Shown here: piece by piece, positions 15,882 to 20,449 of the stretch
Numbering within the stretch: position 1 is the stretch's first letter
How the letters are laid out: the number at the start of each line of letters is the position of its first letter
Source of the DNA: a virus
Virus genome (UHGV): UHGV-0200630
Length of the DNA stretch: 20,449 nucleotides
Reading direction: 5' to 3' (one strand)
Position numbers and translations under genes: made by a program
The notes under the pieces: model-generated
Told to the model about the DNA's origin: nothing
The model's database searches: none
Seen by the model: the letters and a program-made list of their open reading frames with translations, nothing else

Positions 15882-17765
15882 TTATAATCCGAAACCACGA
15901 GGCTTATTAACTGGTCTGTTTCGTTTGATAATGTTTCGACGAGGTTCATGAGTTTGAATAACAGGAGAATTTGTTTCGTTTTGTTCTTCTGGCATTTCAA
16001 TATCAGATTTAGCAGCGAGTTTCCTCCACTCGTGAAATTTGATTTTCTCTAGAACTTGCAGACGCGCGCAATAACCGTAGTTAAAGCAGTCAAGACCTTC
16101 GTTACGAACACCGCCTTGTTTAATAACCCATCTAACAGTATTACCAGAGCGTTTTAATTCTTCGGACATAAGCTGTTCGCAGTAATCATCTGGAACATCA
16201 TCAGAGATTTCGACTCTGACTGGTGTATTTCCAGATTTCACGCTTCTGTTTAGCAGTTCACGAACTAAGTTTTTTCCTTGGTTTACACCAATCATATAAA
16301 GTTCATAACCACCGGTTTTCGTGATTTTCGTTGGAACATAAGGGGCATCAACAGAGCTGGCACCTTTAATTGCTTTCAGGTTTGTCCACTGAGAGCAGAA
16401 ACGATAGATTGTTTTAGTTGCTCGACCGTTTGAGCTATCGACGTTCACCCACGCTAAAGGAACCTTTCTTCCCAAAGCTGTTCTGAACGGTGCTTTAACG
16501 TATGCAAGAAGTTCTTTATAAGCAGGGGAATCGATAACCTCAGCGTTCATTGTCATAAAGCTACGATGTGCAAGAATATAAACGGTTCGTTCGTTGTGAC
16601 CCATCAAGGTTACTTCTAAACGGTCTTGCTGTTGGTCAACCCCAGCGGTTAAAAACAACGTGTCTTCTGGTATATTGCTGATGCCGATATTCGTCTTGAG
16701 TGTTTCTAATTTACTAACCTCAATGTCTTCGTTTAAATCATCAAACGGTAGACCAAGAACAGTGTTATAAAACGTTGACAAGCTGAACGTTTGCCATGCT
16801 TGCTTATAGTCTTCAACAACTGATTTGATAGAACTCATTGGGCTGTATAAACGACTTACGTGGAATCCAGCAATTCGACTTTCAGGTTGATGAATAATCC
16901 ATTCACCTTGTTTAATTGCTCGTGCTCGGTCGCCTTCAGAGAAAGCGTGATGACATTCAGGACATTCAATTCTGGCAGAGTTAGGATCAGGTAATGATTT
17001 ACCATCGATTTTTACCCAGTCGAATTTGATATTCTCCCACGTCAGTTCGTGCTTATGACCACATGTAGGACAGGGAACATGATACTTGCGCTTGTCGGAT
17101 GCTTCATACTGCGTGTGGATAGCACCGTATTTACTTGTAGGCGTCGAGCTAATGAAAACACGAGCGTCTTCACCGAACGTCGTAGCACGTTGTTCCGCGA
17201 TGATAATCGGGTTGCCTTCTTCTGTGTCTGTTTCAACTGCGTCAACTTCATCAAGCAACATCAGCGGAAGAGTTTTACCGCGTAAGTGAGAAGGGCTATT
17301 GAGCGACATGAAATACCAAAAGCCTCCAGCACGTAGCTGAATTTGACTGGTGTTATTCACTGCGTTTCTGTCGTTCTTGTCGGTGACGATTCGTTGCATT
17401 TCTTCCGATTCGTCAATCATTGGGCGAATCTTGCCTGATAGCCATTGAGTCGTCTCTTTACCGGTTGACTGCAAGACACCAGCGTTACCGGGATCAGTAG
17501 CAGACTTATAGAACAGAATTCCGTTCAAGATGGTTGTCTTGCCAATCTGGGCAGAAGTCTCGAAGACGATTTTCTTCTTACGTTCTTTAATGACGTCAAT
17601 CATGCCTTTCTGAAACTCAAACAGTTTCATCGGCTGCCCTGTATAAGGACCATCAGGGAATTTCAGGTACTGTTCGACCCACTCGGACGGAGTGTAGTCA
17701 GGAGGTGGCATTAAAAAGCGCTTTGCATTCTGTAAGATACTTTTCAGTTTATTTGAGTTTTTCAT
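15882..17765 (-). CDS. Terminase large subunit, lambda GpA family (627 aa)
   Basis: Walker A-like FETSAQIGKTT; zinc-ribbon-like CPTCGH...ECPECHH; LTAGVDQQQDRLEV and NEGLDCFNYGY match lambda gpA segments as I recall them. First gene of the leftward operon. Confidence 0.9.
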   Translation of the reverse strand: MKNSNKLKSILQNAKRFLMPPPDYTPSEWVEQYLKFPDGPYTGQPMKLFEFQKGMIDVIKERKKKIVFETSAQIGKTTILNGILFYKSATDPGNAGVLQSTGKETTQWLSGKIRPMIDESEEMQRIVTDKNDRNAVNNTSQIQLRAGGFWYFMSLNSPSHLRGKTLPLMLLDEVDAVETDTEEGNPIIIAEQRATTFGEDARVFISSTPTSKYGAIHTQYEASDKRKYHVPCPTCGHKHELTWENIKFDWVKIDGKSLPDPNSARIECPECHHAFSEGDRARAIKQGEWIIHQPESRIAGFHVSRLYSPMSSIKSVVEDYKQAWQTFSLSTFYNTVLGLPFDDLNEDIEVSKLETLKTNIGISNIPEDTLFLTAGVDQQQDRLEVTLMGHNERTVYILAHRSFMTMNAEVIDSPAYKELLAYVKAPFRTALGRKVPLAWVNVDSSNGRATKTIYRFCSQWTNLKAIKGASSVDAPYVPTKITKTGGYELYMIGVNQGKNLVRELLNRSVKSGNTPVRVEISDDVPDDYCEQLMSEELKRSGNTVRWVIKQGGVRNEGLDCFNYGYCARLQVLEKIKFHEWRKLAAKSDIEMPEEQNETNSPVIQTHEPRRNIIKRNRPVNKPRGFGL

Positions 17766-18768: not shown

Positions 18769-18791
18769 GGGAGCTTAGTGCTCCCTTTTTT
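18769..18791 (+). terminator. Intrinsic terminator
   Basis: Stem GGGAGC (18769-18774) / GCTCCC (18780-18785), loop TTAGT, followed by T6 (18786-18791). Confidence 0.8.
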
Positions 18792-19164
18792 ATTGAATTT
18801 CAAATGAGTAGATTGTAAACCACAGATACTGGAGGCATCTTTGGGGCGCAAGGAATCAAATAGTTGAGAACTTGATTACTCAGTTCTTTAGAACGATCTG
18901 CAAACAGCAGGGCGTACTTCCTGCGAAGCTGAAAGCGTAGAGTCAAAAGCAATAAGGTCGATAACGAAGCAGGAAGCATCAGGTGAACTTGATAACAGGG
19001 AATTGACTTGGAGTATCATTAGGTCAGTAGAAGCAGGGAGAAGCGAGGAGGGATGATGTAGCAGTCAATCATTACTATCATCAAAGATAGGGCTTGCCCG
19101 TTCGACGTAGCGATAGCGAAGGAGAACTCATTAACGTTATTTCAATTAATTATCGATCGTTATG

Positions 19165-19193
19165 TTTATTGATTGTCAGACGAACAGTATAAT
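19165..19193 (+). promoter_or_regulatory. Candidate sigma70-like promoter (TTTATT-N17-TATAAT)
   Basis: Perfect -10 TATAAT at 19188-19193, weak -35 TTTATT at 19165-19170 with 17-bp spacer. Would direct rightward transcription through the mini-hairpin cluster. Confidence 0.25.
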
Positions 19194-19249
19194 GCAGTTA
19201 TCCAGTAATCATTATTATCCAGATCTGAAAAATAATATTGTGAGCGTAG

Positions 19250-19400
19250 CGAACGCGCGAAGCGCTAATAATCTTTATCTAGAAACATCTAATCAGTAGC
19301 TAGTAATCAAGTTCGATAGTGTTATCTGTCGCGCTTCGCGCTAATGTTTATCAATTAGGGCTTCGCCCGCGCTTCGCGCAATCTGCTCGCTTCGCTATGT
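19250..19400. repeat. Cluster of GCGAAGC / GCTTCGC mini-hairpin motifs
   Basis: Read directly: gcGCGAAGCgc at 19257-19267; gcGCTTCGCgc at 19331-19341; ggGCTTCGCcc and gcGCTTCGCgc at 19358-19379; GCTTCGC at about 19390-19396. Additional GCGAAGC at 18923-18929. Confidence 0.75.
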
Positions 19401-19498
19401 TTTCCAGGTTTTGTACTGCTTCTATATCCTTCCAGTTCATCTTTATCCAATTGTTCTTATAGGGCGATTTTTTCTAGGGTCCATGCACTTCTCCGAGT

Positions 19499-19542
19499 CG
19501 CATCGATGCGTTATCGATGCGTTTTGATGTGCATCAATGCAC
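19499..19542. repeat. Operator-like array: 12-bp palindrome, 2 exact tandem 11-bp repeats, 14-bp inverted repeat
   Basis: CGCATCGATGCG palindrome 19499-19510; ATCGATGCGTT at 19502-19512 and again at 19513-19523; GTGCAT-CA-ATGCAC at 19529-19542. Confidence 0.8.
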
Positions 19543-19728
19543 CTGCTTTTCACTAAATTATTTTTCGGACTTTGTTTACACTTTCGGTGAACTATATAAA
19601 TATTAGTATGAACACAGAGAGTTTCTTCTTCCTCGTTATTTTCTCTCGTTTGTTTACTACTGACTTTATCCGTCATAAAATAAGATATAAGCAATTAGCT
19701 TAGTTCATTTAAAAATTCCTTAAGTTTA

Positions 19729-19754
19729 AAGCACTCTTCGGAGTGCTTATTTTT
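19729..19754 (+). terminator. Intrinsic terminator / attenuator upstream of the right-end genes
   Basis: 8-bp stem AAGCACTC (19729-19736) / GAGTGCTT (19741-19748) with TTCG loop, followed by ATTTTT. Confidence 0.75.
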
Positions 19755-19778
19755 CAATTCAATAAAAAAGGCAACCCC

Positions 19779-19937
19779 ATGAAATTTATACCTAACAAAT
19801 TCGAAATTGAATCTCGCTTAGACTCTGGTGAGACATTTCAGCAAATTGCAGAATCTAAACAAATGAATAAAGCAACGATGTATAATGCTTGCAAAAAACG
19901 TAATATCAGAACTCAACCAATCAATAAAGGCAAATAA
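19779..19937 (+). CDS. Small helix-turn-helix protein (52 aa)
   Basis: ATG at 19779 with weak AAGG SD 8 nt upstream; the ORF-track start at 19743 is a GTG inside the terminator hairpin. SGETFQQIAESKQMNKATMYNACKK is HTH-like. Confidence 0.5.
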   Translation: MKFIPNKFEIESRLDSGETFQQIAESKQMNKATMYNACKKRNIRTQPINKGK

Positions 19938-20391
19938 ATTGAATTTCAAATTTGCAGTCTTCGAAAATCTAGACAGAACAGTTAAAGCAAGCCTGAACAG
20001 AAATATTATCAAAGTTAATAGAATGACCAATAACAAAAACAGCCTGAAAGCTCTTGTTAAAGCTATAGATATTCATCGTAATGTTCGAGCTAAGATGTTA
20101 CAGAAGATTGAAAATGCTGTGACTGTAAAAAATATGCATAGCTTCGAAATCGGTACGACCGAAGTTAATAATCTGCCTGCAATCGTTGCTTATACAACCG
20201 ATAATGCTGTTATCGTTGCTTGTGAAATTAACGGTAAAAAGAACTCGTGGAAAGCTTTCTGTTCAGATCTAAGAATGCAGAAGATCAAAGACACCGAGCA
20301 GTTTGTTCAGATGTATACTGGTGAATTTATTGAAATCATCGAAAGTATTGAATTTCCGACTGAGCAGAGACTAAATAGCTGCGCGGAATAG
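19885..20391 (+). CDS. Hypothetical protein (up to 168 aa; start ambiguous: ATG 19885, TTG 19939 or ATG 20023)
   Basis: Long ORF in the +1 frame relative to the 52-aa HTH ORF, overlapping it. None of the candidate starts has a strong SD. Stop codon TAG at 20389-20391 lies inside the right ITR. Family not recognised. Confidence 0.45.
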   Translation: MLAKNVISELNQSIKANKLNFKFAVFENLDRTVKASLNRNIIKVNRMTNNKNSLKALVKAIDIHRNVRAKMLQKIENAVTVKNMHSFEIGTTEVNNLPAIVAYTTDNAVIVACEINGKKNSWKAFCSDLRMQKIKDTEQFVQMYTGEFIEIIESIEFPTEQRLNSCAE

Positions 20392-20448
20392 TAGATCACT
20401 GAAAGGGAACTCAGCCCGGATTGTGCGATCTGATCAATCGCCAAACCA
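20371..20448. repeat. Right terminal inverted repeat (78 bp), reverse complement of 1-78
   Basis: Read directly; one extra base (a, 20449) beyond the repeat at the right end. Confidence 0.95.
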
Positions 20449-20449
20449 A

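What the first reader, a model, noticed from the sequence alone, without database searches (positions are those of the whole stretch)
19067..19263. Two degenerate repeat units spaced about 140 bp apart in the non-coding region
aatcattactatca (19067-19080) and aatcattattatcc (19207-19220) are each followed about 25 nt later by cgtagcga-NN-gcgaag (19106-19122 and 19245-19263). A third gcgaag...gcgtag pair occurs at 18923-18940. Spaced iterated units of this kind resemble iteron or centromere-like arrays.
Basis: seen in the sequence. Interest (0 to 1): 0.5.

Follow-up and report, generated by a model that had tools for sequence, protein, structure and literature searches.

The report
Mirrored GCGAAGC hairpin arrays in prophage
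The two "repeat units" are really two members of a larger, conserved set of short GC-rich hairpin motifs (GCGAAGC) that face each other across an AT-rich spacer in a 0.9-kb non-coding control region of an E. coli prophage; it most likely acts as a cis-acting DNA site such as a replication origin, but its function is not proven.

Summary
The sequences are at the stated coordinates, but the "140-bp unit" does not hold up. Only the AT-rich 13-mer and the CGTAGCGA..GCGAAG core match. The 25 nt between them do not align, and the AT-rich part is not conserved in relatives.

What is real is larger. Six of the window's seven GCGAAGC heptamers lie in 18923-19395, on the + strand to the left and the - strand to the right of an AT-rich spacer (19266-19330). 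All seven perfect all-GC mini-hairpins of the 20-kb window lie in 19090-19379.

The window is an E. coli MS 115-1-type, roughly 35-kb prophage (the retron-Ec67 element family, between ldtB and ybiT). The non-coding region is conserved in at least 11 enterobacterial lineages. Motif polarity is kept in all of them, copy number varies, and several hairpin stems carry compensatory changes.

The same region holds three tandem + strand promoters, an operator-like palindrome, 11-bp-phased CGATGCG repeats, an invariant 15-mer and two terminators.

Best guess (about 0.35): a replication-origin-type cis element. Rivals are a transcription/RNA switch and a terminase (cos/pac) site. A parS-type centromere is not supported. 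No Rfam, phage or plasmid match was found.

The parts
18769..18791 (+). Intrinsic terminator after the 59-aa gene (GGGAGC-ttagt-GCTCCC plus a T run, with an A run upstream). It marks the left edge of the non-coding region.
   Evidence: Read from the sequence. Relatives carry a NUMOD3 homing-endonuclease gene just to its right.
18923..18940 (+). Outermost left-array copy: GCGAAGC (18923-18929) followed by GCGTAG.
   Evidence: Relatives have GCGAGC..GGCGAAGCGAC here.
18960..19065 (+). Purine-rich left domain with GAAGC repeats, including the conserved block GAGCAGGGAGAAGCGAGGAGGGA (19029-19053).
   Evidence: GC skew +0.2 to +0.4 and AT skew +0.3 to +0.4. GAAGC occurs 6 times on the + strand. The block is conserved in several lineages.
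19067..19080 (+). Not conserved in relatives.
19090..19099 (+). Hairpin H1: GGGC-tt-GCCC (in RNA terms, a G(CUUG)C tetraloop).
   Evidence: It is replaced by GCGC-gaa-GCGC (L031), GGGC-gcta-GCCC (L035) and GGGC-gcca-GCCC (L039) at the same place.
19100..19129 (+). It is a left-array copy with GCGAAGG here and GCGAAGC in most relatives.
19146..19163 (.). Operator-like palindrome (family consensus TTAACGATCGTTAA, centred on GATC) abutting the -35 of P0.
19165..19193 (+). Promoter-like site P0: TTTATT, 17 nt, TATAAT. TATAATGC matches exactly in 9 of the 10 lineages examined.
   Evidence: and the alignments. The simple scan did not list it because the -35 is weak.
19207..19220 (+). Only loosely conserved.
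19242..19269 (+). It contains GCGTAGC and the hairpin GCGC-gaa-GCGC (19255-19265). This is the innermost left-array copy and is nearly invariant.
19266..19330 (.). AT-rich spacer where motif polarity flips. Its length and sequence vary between lineages by +26 to about +60 nt.
19331..19395 (-). Right array. GCGAAGC occurs on the - strand 4 times (19333, 19360, 19371, 19389), with hairpins R1 GCGC-ttc-GCGC (19331-19341), R2 GGGC-ttc-GCCC (19358-19368) and R3 GCGC-ttc-GCGC (19369-19379).
   Evidence: Compensatory variants: TGGC..GCCA (L005), GCGC..GCGC and GGGC-aa-GCCC (L024), GGGC-tac-GCCC (L031). L033 has a tandem 38-nt duplication.
19412..19495 (+). Pyrimidine-rich, highly conserved block. It contains the 15-mer ATTGTTCTTATAGGG (19450-19464), which is invariant across the 8 aligned lineages.
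   Evidence: The ATTGTTCTT core recurs in distant relatives: DCP80 (several copies, both orientations) and L007.
19499..19542 (+). Iteron-like direct repeats ATCGATGCG at 19502 and 19513 (11-nt phase) plus a third degenerate palindromic copy, GTGCATCAATGCAC. In most lineages these can also fold as a terminator-like hairpin followed by TTTT.
   Evidence: The repeat is kept in L024, where the hairpin is lost. The distance to the 15-mer is a fixed 48 nt in the five lineages compared.
19575..19604 (+). Promoter-like site P1 (TTTACA -35 preceded by TTTG).
   Evidence: (D7).
19653..19681 (+). Promoter-like site P2 (TTTACT, 17 nt, TAAAAT). It is conserved.
19729..19755 (+). Intrinsic terminator with a c(UUCG)g loop plus a T run, just upstream of the 52-aa gene.
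   Evidence: Compensatory stem changes (GCACTC/GAGTGC against GCGCTC/GAGCGC) and a GCAA loop in relatives.

Best explanation
The finding lies in the main conserved non-coding control region (about 18.9-19.75 kb) of a roughly 35-kb enterobacterial prophage of the retron-Ec67-element type.

This motif forms two opposed arrays. Copies read GCGAAGC on the + strand to the left and on the - strand to the right of a variable AT-rich spacer. Several copies are extended into perfect GC hairpins.

I propose that this is the element's origin-of-replication-type cis site.
1. A protein bound to phased repeats or palindromes nearby, and/or transcription entering from promoter P0, opens the AT-rich spacer.
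2. The two displaced strands then each expose GCGNAGC-type mini-hairpins, a DNA motif known to be unusually stable and poorly bound by SSB.
3. These hairpins serve as outward-facing single-strand initiation (priming or loading) signals, in the manner of ssiA/ssiB of RSF1010 or the G4-type complementary-strand origin.

Shown: the motif family, its polarity, its conservation, the hairpin covariation and the neighbouring promoter, operator and repeat elements. Inferred: every functional step, namely opening, hairpin extrusion, priming, and which protein acts.
For: - **Clustering and polarity in the window.** 6 of 7 GCGAAGC copies lie in 18923-19395, + strand on the left and - strand on the right. 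All 7 perfect all-GC mini-hairpins of the window lie in 19090-19379. They are enriched against local dinucleotide shuffles.
- **Polarity in relatives.** The rule holds without exception in every alignable lineage, while copy number varies. L033 has 5 left and 6 right copies; L024, L031, L037, L038 and L039 also conform.
- **Hairpin covariation.** Compensatory stem changes are seen at H1, R2 and R3.
- **Distant relatives.** Lineages whose DNA no longer aligns still carry G-C-rich triloop hairpins in the same position. GNA-type loops lie toward TerL and TNC-type loops lie distal in L007, L022 and L026.
- **Strand composition.** Purine/pyrimidine skew flips at the spacer.
- **Origin-like accessories.** An AT-rich variable spacer, CGATGCG direct repeats phased at 11 nt, an operator-like palindrome and an invariant TATAAT promoter firing into the arrays.
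- **Literature.** d(GCGNAGC) mini-hairpins are extraordinarily stable and bind SSB poorly. They occur at the G4/St-1/alpha3 priming sites and in RSF1010 ssiA, which is one of two ssi signals at the RSF1010 origin; that ssiA and ssiB lie on opposite strands is from my own knowledge. They also occur in N4 hairpin promoters (PMC13037366). N4 P1 contains GCGAAGC (PMC12633501).
- **Genomic setting.** This is the largest conserved non-coding stretch in the parts of the element examined, and no other origin candidate or replication gene is annotated. Homing-endonuclease genes flank or invade it, as expected next to an indispensable conserved sequence.
Against: - No initiator, helicase, loader or primase gene was recognised in the element. 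The adjacent 246-331-aa protein family gave only a low-confidence model (pLDDT 50).
- There is no DnaA-box enrichment and no GATC excess.
- Minimum free energies of the hairpin segments are no better than shuffles under standard RNA or DNA parameters (z about 0). Structural support therefore rests on the excess of perfect palindromes and a handful of compensatory changes.
- Four-base-pair stems are too short for cruciform extrusion from duplex DNA (my own knowledge, not tested here).
- It is not known whether this element replicates autonomously.
- Several copies are not hairpins beyond the 7-mer, which equally fits a sequence-specific duplex-binding protein.
Confidence: 0.35

Rival explanations
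1. It is a transcriptional or RNA-level control region. P0, P1 and P2 transcribe rightward through the hairpin arrays and two terminators toward the 52-aa HTH and 246-aa genes. The GC hairpins would act in RNA as processing, stability, antitermination (nut/put-like) or antisense-pairing elements. Left-type (GCGAAGC) and right-type (GCUUCGC) copies on the same strand are mutually complementary, as in the seqA/seqB/seqC logic of P4 immunity.
For: - P0 is almost invariant and carries an operator-like palindrome.
- P1 and P2 share a TTTGTTTAC -35 element.
- The terminator at 19729-19755 has RNA-typical UUCG or GCAA loops and compensatory stem changes.
- H1 reads as a G(CUUG)C tetraloop on the + strand in several lineages.
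- RNAalifold keeps the pairing of 19257-19269 with 19354-19366 in four lineages.
- The 336-nt + strand fold has z = -3.4.
Against: - The left array and H1 lie upstream of P0, and no convincing promoter was found for them or for a leftward RNA.
- The mirrored polarity and purine/pyrimidine flip are not explained by transcripts that all run rightward.
- Long-range pairs show no covariation, only invariance.
- The partner hairpin changes position or is lost between lineages.
- There is no Rfam match.
- Short-segment folds are no better than shuffles.
Confidence: 0.25
2. It is the terminase recognition and cleavage region (cos or pac). The GCGAAGC copies and/or ATTGTTCTT motifs would be binding sites for the Nu1-like small terminase on both sides of a cut site in or near the GC-rich cluster or spacer.
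For: - TerL is gpA-type (GpA_ATPase and GpA_nuclease). TerS is phrog_57 with an excisionase-like HTH.
- In every lineage the region lies between TerS and TerL.
- In DCP80 the element-like segment starts with the 1.29-kb non-coding region and ends right after TerS. That segment has no regulator or replication genes.
- DCP80 still has GCTTCGC and ATTGTTCTT repeats in both orientations.
- GC-rich islands in AT-rich DNA and flanking repeat clusters resemble lambda cosN/cosB and P1 pac (my own knowledge).
Against: - TerS is about 5 kb away, and the region is not immediately upstream of it.
- The candidate cut-site hairpins R1 and R3 are lost, duplicated or replaced between phages whose TerL is 75-88% identical. 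That is unusual for a cosN.
- The conserved region (about 650 nt plus promoters) is far larger than known cos sites.
- The DCP80 record is a chimeric assembly, so its start is not proven to be a physical end.
- No termini data are available.
Confidence: 0.2
3. It is a centromere-like partition site (parS/parC).
For: Iterated short motifs lie in two clusters around a promoter-like site, which superficially resembles R1 parC or P1 parS (my own knowledge).
Against: - The element is chromosomally integrated by a large serine recombinase.
- No ParA/ParB/ParM/ParR-type gene was detected in or around it.
- There is no similarity to any plasmid.
Confidence: 0.03
4. It is a chance resemblance of short motifs in AT-rich spacer DNA.
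For: Two-copy 13-mers are often chance. The third site is no better than shuffles.
Against: The motif clustering, polarity, conservation over at least 11 lineages and compensatory changes argue against chance.
Confidence: 0.02

Closest known systems
RSF1010 oriV (iterons, AT-rich segment, and ssiA/ssiB single-strand initiation signals on opposite strands)
   Same: Hairpins of the C(GAA)G mini-hairpin type on opposite strands in mirrored orientation, next to an AT-rich segment and phased direct repeats, all in a non-coding region.
   Different: There is no RepA/RepB'/RepC homologue and no sequence similarity. The arrays have several short copies per side instead of one 40-nt ssi each. Stems are only 2-4 bp. 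The host element is an integrated siphovirus-like prophage.
G4/St-1/alpha3 complementary-strand origins (primase-dependent priming at GCG(N)NAGC mini-hairpins)
   Same: The same extraordinarily stable mini-hairpin class (GCGAAGC, GCGTAGC) at a phage non-coding site.
   Different: Those are ssDNA phages with a single strand-specific site. Here the phage is dsDNA, with arrays on both strands, and priming is untested.
Coliphage N4 early promoters (DNA hairpin, 5-7-bp stem, GNA triloop; P1 contains GCGAAGC)
   Same: An identical heptamer core and triloop type. The geometry would give outward synthesis from each array.
   Different: No virion RNA polymerase or other single-subunit RNAP gene is present in the element. 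Stems are shorter.
Lambda cos (cosQ-cosN-cosB with R sites and an IHF site) and P1 pac (hexamer clusters flanking the cut)
   Same: A gpA/Nu1-type terminase, a GC-rich island with flanking short repeats, and a location between the terminase genes.
   Different: It is not adjacent to TerS, it is much larger, the candidate cut-site sequences are not conserved, and promoters and terminators are embedded.
P4/phiR73 RNA immunity (seqA/seqB/seqC complementary repeats in a leader transcript)
   Same: Complementary short repeats on one strand in a non-coding leader downstream of a promoter in a retron-carrying prophage.
   Different: The element type is unrelated (not P4-like). Part of the array lies upstream of the promoter. 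No processed RNA is known.

Membership tests
Iteron-type replication origin | Three or more direct repeats of about 17-22 bp in one orientation with helical phasing | tested here: not met
   The GCGAAGC units have a 7-11-bp core, irregular spacing and two orientations. Only CGATGCG (2-3 copies, 11-nt phase) approaches this.
Iteron-type replication origin | Adjacent AT-rich unwinding segment | tested here: inconclusive
   AT-rich stretches at 19130-19245 and 19266-19330 have GC 0.31-0.35. The whole region is AT-rich and no unwinding test is possible.
Iteron-type replication origin | Cognate initiator (Rep) gene next to the repeats | tested here: inconclusive
   The flanking genes are a GntR-like wHTH (144 aa), a 52-aa protein and a 246-331-aa coiled-coil/Zn-ribbon family with no Rep-family hit. 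The structural model is unusable.
Iteron-type replication origin | DnaA boxes | tested here: not met
   TTWTNCACA with up to 1 mismatch gives 46 matches in the window against 62.6 expected, with 3 in the region.
Single-strand initiation signals (ssiA/ssiB, G4-type) | Stable hairpin containing a GNA-loop mini-hairpin | tested here: met
   GCGC-gaa-GCGC, GCGTAGC and four - strand GCGAAGC copies. Properties are taken from PMC13037366.
Single-strand initiation signals (ssiA/ssiB, G4-type) | Signals on opposite strands of an origin | tested here: met
   Strict + (left) and - (right) polarity in all alignable lineages.
Single-strand initiation signals (ssiA/ssiB, G4-type) | Primase-dependent priming on the single strand | not testable with these tools
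   This needs an in vitro priming assay or an M13 ssi-rescue assay.
Lambda-type cos site | gpA-type TerL with a Nu1-like TerS | tested here: met
   GpA_ATPase and GpA_nuclease. TerS is phrog_57.
Lambda-type cos site | Site immediately upstream of the small terminase gene | tested here: not met
   TerS lies about 5 kb away, separated by other genes.
Lambda-type cos site | Defined cohesive ends at a conserved cosN | not testable with these tools
   No virion-end data are available. The candidate GC hairpins vary between close relatives.
parS/parC centromere | Adjacent partition NTPase and centromere-binding protein genes | tested here: not met
   None appear among the annotated or scanned ORFs of the element.
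N4-type hairpin promoter | Cognate virion or single-subunit RNA polymerase | tested here: not met
   No such gene is in the element. The large ORFs are tail or tail-fibre proteins.
Known RNA families (Rfam 15) | Match at or near the gathering score | tested here: not met
   Only sub-threshold hits, driven by the terminators (TarB 29.9 against 80 bits).

The most novel reading that the evidence does not exclude
A temperate dsDNA prophage without recognisable replication genes uses mirrored arrays of the extraordinarily stable d(GCGNAGC) mini-hairpin as strand-specific single-stranded-DNA initiation signals. These would be host-primase entry sites or hairpin promoters, exposed when an AT-rich spacer is opened. 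This would be a compact, host-dependent bidirectional origin of a type not described for tailed phages.
Probability: 0.15. Interest if true: 0.75.

Novelty: new variant of a known kind. Interest (0 to 1): 0.45.

Why it matters
If the arrays are origin or priming signals, they would define how a widespread but uncharacterised family of enterobacterial prophages replicates without obvious replication genes. These prophages carry retron Ec67, TIR and other defence cargo.

It would also extend the biology of DNA mini-hairpins from ssDNA phages, RSF1010 and N4 to temperate tailed phages. If the region turns out to be cos or a switch, it still marks the key cis-acting hub of the element. That hub would be useful for engineering or for predicting mobilisation of the defence cargo.

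As it stands, this is a well-supported conserved motif architecture with an unproven function.

Tried and rejected
- **Similarity searches.** megablast and blastn of the region against the phage and plasmid collections found no match. Rfam gave nothing meaningful.
- **Protein coding.** Rejected. Indels and frame changes occur between relatives in 19540-19700. The - strand 83-aa ORF and the + strand 31-aa ORF are not conserved.
- **Retron msr/msd.** Rejected. The Ec67-type RT lies beyond the window, its ncRNA would sit next to the RT, and relatives without a retron keep the region.
- **One large degenerate palindrome or fold-back.** Rejected. Left arm against the reverse complement of the right arm aligns only at the GCGAAGCGCTAAT core. 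The inverted pairs are not colinear.
- **DnaA boxes and GATC clustering.** Neither is enriched.
- **Structure prediction of the adjacent 246-331-aa protein.** pLDDT 50, so no fold search was run.
- **Genome-contig scans.** The TerL profile found nothing. The 17-mer found only unrelated taxa.
- **A leftward promoter (TGGACC, 16 nt, TATAAG) at the invariant 15-mer.** Considered but left unresolved, because a conserved SD plus mini-ORF overlaps it.
- **A lambda-like cosN at R2/R3.** Considered and disfavoured because of the variability between lineages.

Full report
**Context**

The window is a prophage-like element. On the - strand it encodes a gpA-type large terminase (15882-17765), a portal protein, a protease-capsid fusion and tail genes.

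It is 99.9% identical to a chromosomal segment of E. coli MS 115-1. There, and in E. coli L3Cip3, the element spans about 35 kb between ldtB and ybiT. It ends with a large serine recombinase.

Intact copies carry a retron Ec67-family RT-Toprim gene just beyond the window end. From position 20376 the window runs into a multi-copy insertion sequence.

The finding lies in a 0.95-kb stretch without conserved ORFs. This stretch sits between the terminator of a two-gene + strand operon (a 144-aa GntR-like wHTH protein and a 59-aa protein) and a second + strand operon (a 52-aa protein and a 246-aa protein). The small terminase gene is about 5 kb further right on the - strand, so the region lies between TerS and TerL.

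**Checking the observation**

However, a local alignment of the two proposed units aligns only the AT-rich 17-18 nt. That match is better than 300 shuffles, but it does not bridge to the GC-rich part.

In homologous elements the AT-rich 13-mers are not conserved, whereas the (T/G)AGCGA..GCGAAG parts are. The third site is no more similar to the other two than shuffled sequence. So the unit spaced 140 bp apart is not a repeat unit. The GC-rich motif is real.

**What is actually there**

- **Motif clustering.** The heptamer GCGAAGC occurs 7 times in 20.4 kb (1.76 expected). Six copies fall between 18923 and 19395.
- **Strand polarity.** The two left copies (18923, 19257) are on the + strand and the four right copies (19333, 19360, 19371, 19389) are on the - strand. 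The GCGAAGG variant at 19116 is also on the + strand.
- **Hairpins.** Several copies are extended to perfect hairpins: GCGC-gaa-GCGC at 19255, GCGC-ttc-GCGC at 19331 and 19369, GGGC-ttc-GCCC at 19358, plus GGGC-tt-GCCC at 19090. These are the only perfect all-GC mini-hairpins in the whole window. They are enriched against dinucleotide shuffles of the region itself: 7 observed against about 0.3 expected.
- **Composition.** The left domain is purine-rich and the right domain pyrimidine-rich on the + strand. The flip occurs at an AT-rich spacer, 19266-19330.

**Comparative evidence**

Relatives were collected in three ways: through TerL, through the 246-aa protein family and through the 144-aa family. 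They come from E. coli, Kluyvera, Enterobacter hormaechei, Citrobacter and metagenomes.

In all alignable lineages (L003/L019, L005/L006/L025, L024, L031/L032, L033, L034, L035, L037, L038, L039) the region occupies the same position. It aligns at 67-80% identity with near-invariant blocks.

The polarity rule has no exception: GCGAAGC occurs only on the left and GCTTCGC only on the right. Copy number varies from 2-5 on the left and 2-6 on the right. L033 has a 38-nt tandem duplication of the R1-R2 unit.

Hairpins are kept through compensatory changes:
- H1 is GGGC-tt-GCCC, GCGC-gaa-GCGC, GGGC-gcta-GCCC or GGGC-gcca-GCCC.
- R2 is GGGC-ttc-GCCC, TGGC-ttc-GCCA, GCGC-ttc-GCGC or GGGC-tac-GCCC.
- R3 is GCGC-ttc-GCGC or GGGC-aa-GCCC.

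More distant relatives no longer align (L007/L027, L022, L026, and the first 1.29 kb of the chimeric GenBank record DCP80). They still have a large non-coding region in the same place with G-C triloop hairpins. In three of the four distinct lineages the GNA loops lie toward TerL and the TNC loops lie distal.

Standard nearest-neighbour folding does not rate the short segments better than shuffles. The case for structure therefore rests on the palindrome excess and the covariation, not on energy.

**Other elements in the same region**

- **P0.** A promoter-like site at 19165-19193, with TATAATGC matching exactly in 9 of 10 lineages. It is preceded by an operator-like palindrome (consensus TTAACGATCGTTAA) and fires rightward into the arrays.
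- **The 15-mer.** The pyrimidine-rich block 19412-19495 contains ATTGTTCTTATAGGG, invariant across the 8 aligned lineages. Its ATTGTTCTT core recurs in DCP80 in several copies and both orientations, within a 149-nt tandem unit that also holds GCTTCGC. It also recurs in L007.
- **CGATGCG repeats.** Exactly 48 nt to the right of the 15-mer in the five lineages compared lie direct repeats of CGATGCG, 11 nt apart, plus a third palindromic copie. The repeat survives in L024, where the alternative hairpin is lost. This points to protein binding rather than a terminator. These are the best iteron-like repeats in the region.
- **Separable modules.** In L034 and L035 a homing-endonuclease-type gene is inserted between this module and the downstream module. 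So 18.92-19.55 kb is a separable unit.
- **Downstream module.** It holds two tandem promoters with a shared TTTGTTTAC -35 element (19575-19604 and 19653-19681). It also holds a c(UUCG)g terminator (19729-19755) with compensatory changes.

**Interpretation**

The mirrored arrangement, the strand-composition flip and the presence of half of the array upstream of the only well-supported promoter all argue for a DNA-level element. An RNA made from one strand would not explain them.

GCGNAGC is the known, extraordinarily stable DNA mini-hairpin. According to a 2026 review it binds SSB poorly. It is found at primase start sites of G4, St-1 and alpha3, in ssiA of RSF1010 (one of two ssi signals at that origin; their position on opposite strands is my own knowledge), and in N4 hairpin promoters (PMC13037366). 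N4 P1 contains GCGAAGC itself (PMC12633501).

With the hairpin on the + strand at the left and on the - strand at the right, any template-directed synthesis started at them would run outward from the spacer.

Taken together, these features favour a replication-origin-type site: the AT-rich variable spacer, phased direct repeats, an operator-like palindrome, a promoter reading into the site, and adjacency to an uncharacterised HTH plus coiled-coil/Zn-ribbon gene pair. I give this about 0.35. All mechanistic steps are inferred.

**Weaknesses**

No initiator, helicase or primase was recognised anywhere in the element. There is no DnaA-box or GATC enrichment. Stems are short, and it is unknown whether the element replicates on its own.

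**Rivals**

- **Transcription/RNA switch (0.25).** It is supported by the promoters, the terminators, the CUUG-type loop of H1 and a conserved but non-covarying long-range pairing. It leaves the left array and the polarity unexplained.
- **Terminase site, cos or pac (0.2).** It is supported by the lambda-like terminase, the constant position between TerS and TerL, and the fact that the DCP80 segment has this region plus terminase genes but no regulators. It is weakened by the distance from TerS, by the size of the region and by turnover of the candidate cut-site hairpins among close relatives.
- **Centromere (0.03).** Not supported: the element is integrated, there are no partition genes, and there is no plasmid similarity.

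**Novelty and score**

Nothing similar is annotated in 50,697 phage or 72,556 plasmid records, and no Rfam family matches. The architecture resembles known origin and ssi logic but differs in motif size, multiplicity and host element, so I rate it a new variant of a known kind.

The motif pattern is solid and unusual, but the function is unproven, so interest is moderate (0.45).

Noticed in passing
window 20376-20449: The last roughly 75 nt diverge from the otherwise identical L002/L009/L013 copies and match more than 1000 E. coli records in multiple copies. This is an insertion-sequence end that truncates the 246-aa gene (ORF 19885-20391 in the window).
   Followed up: partly
L002 941-2710 (-); L013 12371-14125: Intact copies of the element carry a retron Ec67-family RT-Toprim (type I-C) gene just beyond the window end, followed by a TIR-domain gene. 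The element sits between ldtB and ybiT. Cargo between the 246-aa gene and TerS differs between lineages.
   Followed up: partly
L013 6905-8025: In the complete MS 115-1 genome the TerL gene is split by an IS3-family element, whereas the window has an intact TerL. The window therefore comes from a different copy, assembly or strain.
   Followed up: no
L019 19181-19795; L031 485-1090; L034 3931-4599; L035 4168-4614; L007 5377-5883; L026 5382-5870: Homing-endonuclease-type genes (NUMOD3, GIY-YIG, HNH) flank or invade the non-coding region in most relatives. They lie left of it, between 19542 and about 19560-19600, or directly upstream of TerL. The window has none.
   Followed up: partly
window 19451-19492 (-): A 13-codon mini-ORF (MDPRKNRPIRTIG) lies on the - strand, overlapping the invariant 15-mer. 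It is present in 9 of 10 lineages, 7 of them with the GGAG Shine-Dalgarno (weakened in L003, absent in L033), and the ORF is absent in L024. Synonymous sites are invariant, so the constraint looks nucleic-acid-level.
   Followed up: partly
window 18793-18805 and 19939-19951: The exact 13-mer TTGAATTTCAAAT (near-palindromic) occurs twice: right after the first terminator and at the 52-aa/246-aa gene junction. There is also a 21-nt, 90% inverted repeat (18784-18804 with 19751-19771) bracketing the whole non-coding region.
   Followed up: no
L001/L021 (GenBank PQ671644.1, phage DCP80): The 141-kb record is chimeric. Its first roughly 26 kb is a relative of this element (non-coding region, TerL, structural genes, endolysin, TerS), joined near an HNH gene to T4-like DNA with duplicated rIIA.
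   Followed up: partly
L044, L045, L104, L107, L108 and others (genome contigs): The 17-mer GCGCGAAGCGCTAATAA is multi-copy in several rumen Bacteroidales MAGs. It occurs four times at about 140-150-nt spacing in Halioxenophilus aromaticivorans. These are probably unrelated repeat families that share the hairpin.
   Followed up: no
L013 14632-15153; L019 23850-24389; L026 377-898: The small terminase gene is separated from TerL by a 3-6-kb module in the opposite orientation (regulator-like genes, the non-coding region and defence cargo). This is an unusual split of the packaging genes.
   Followed up: partly
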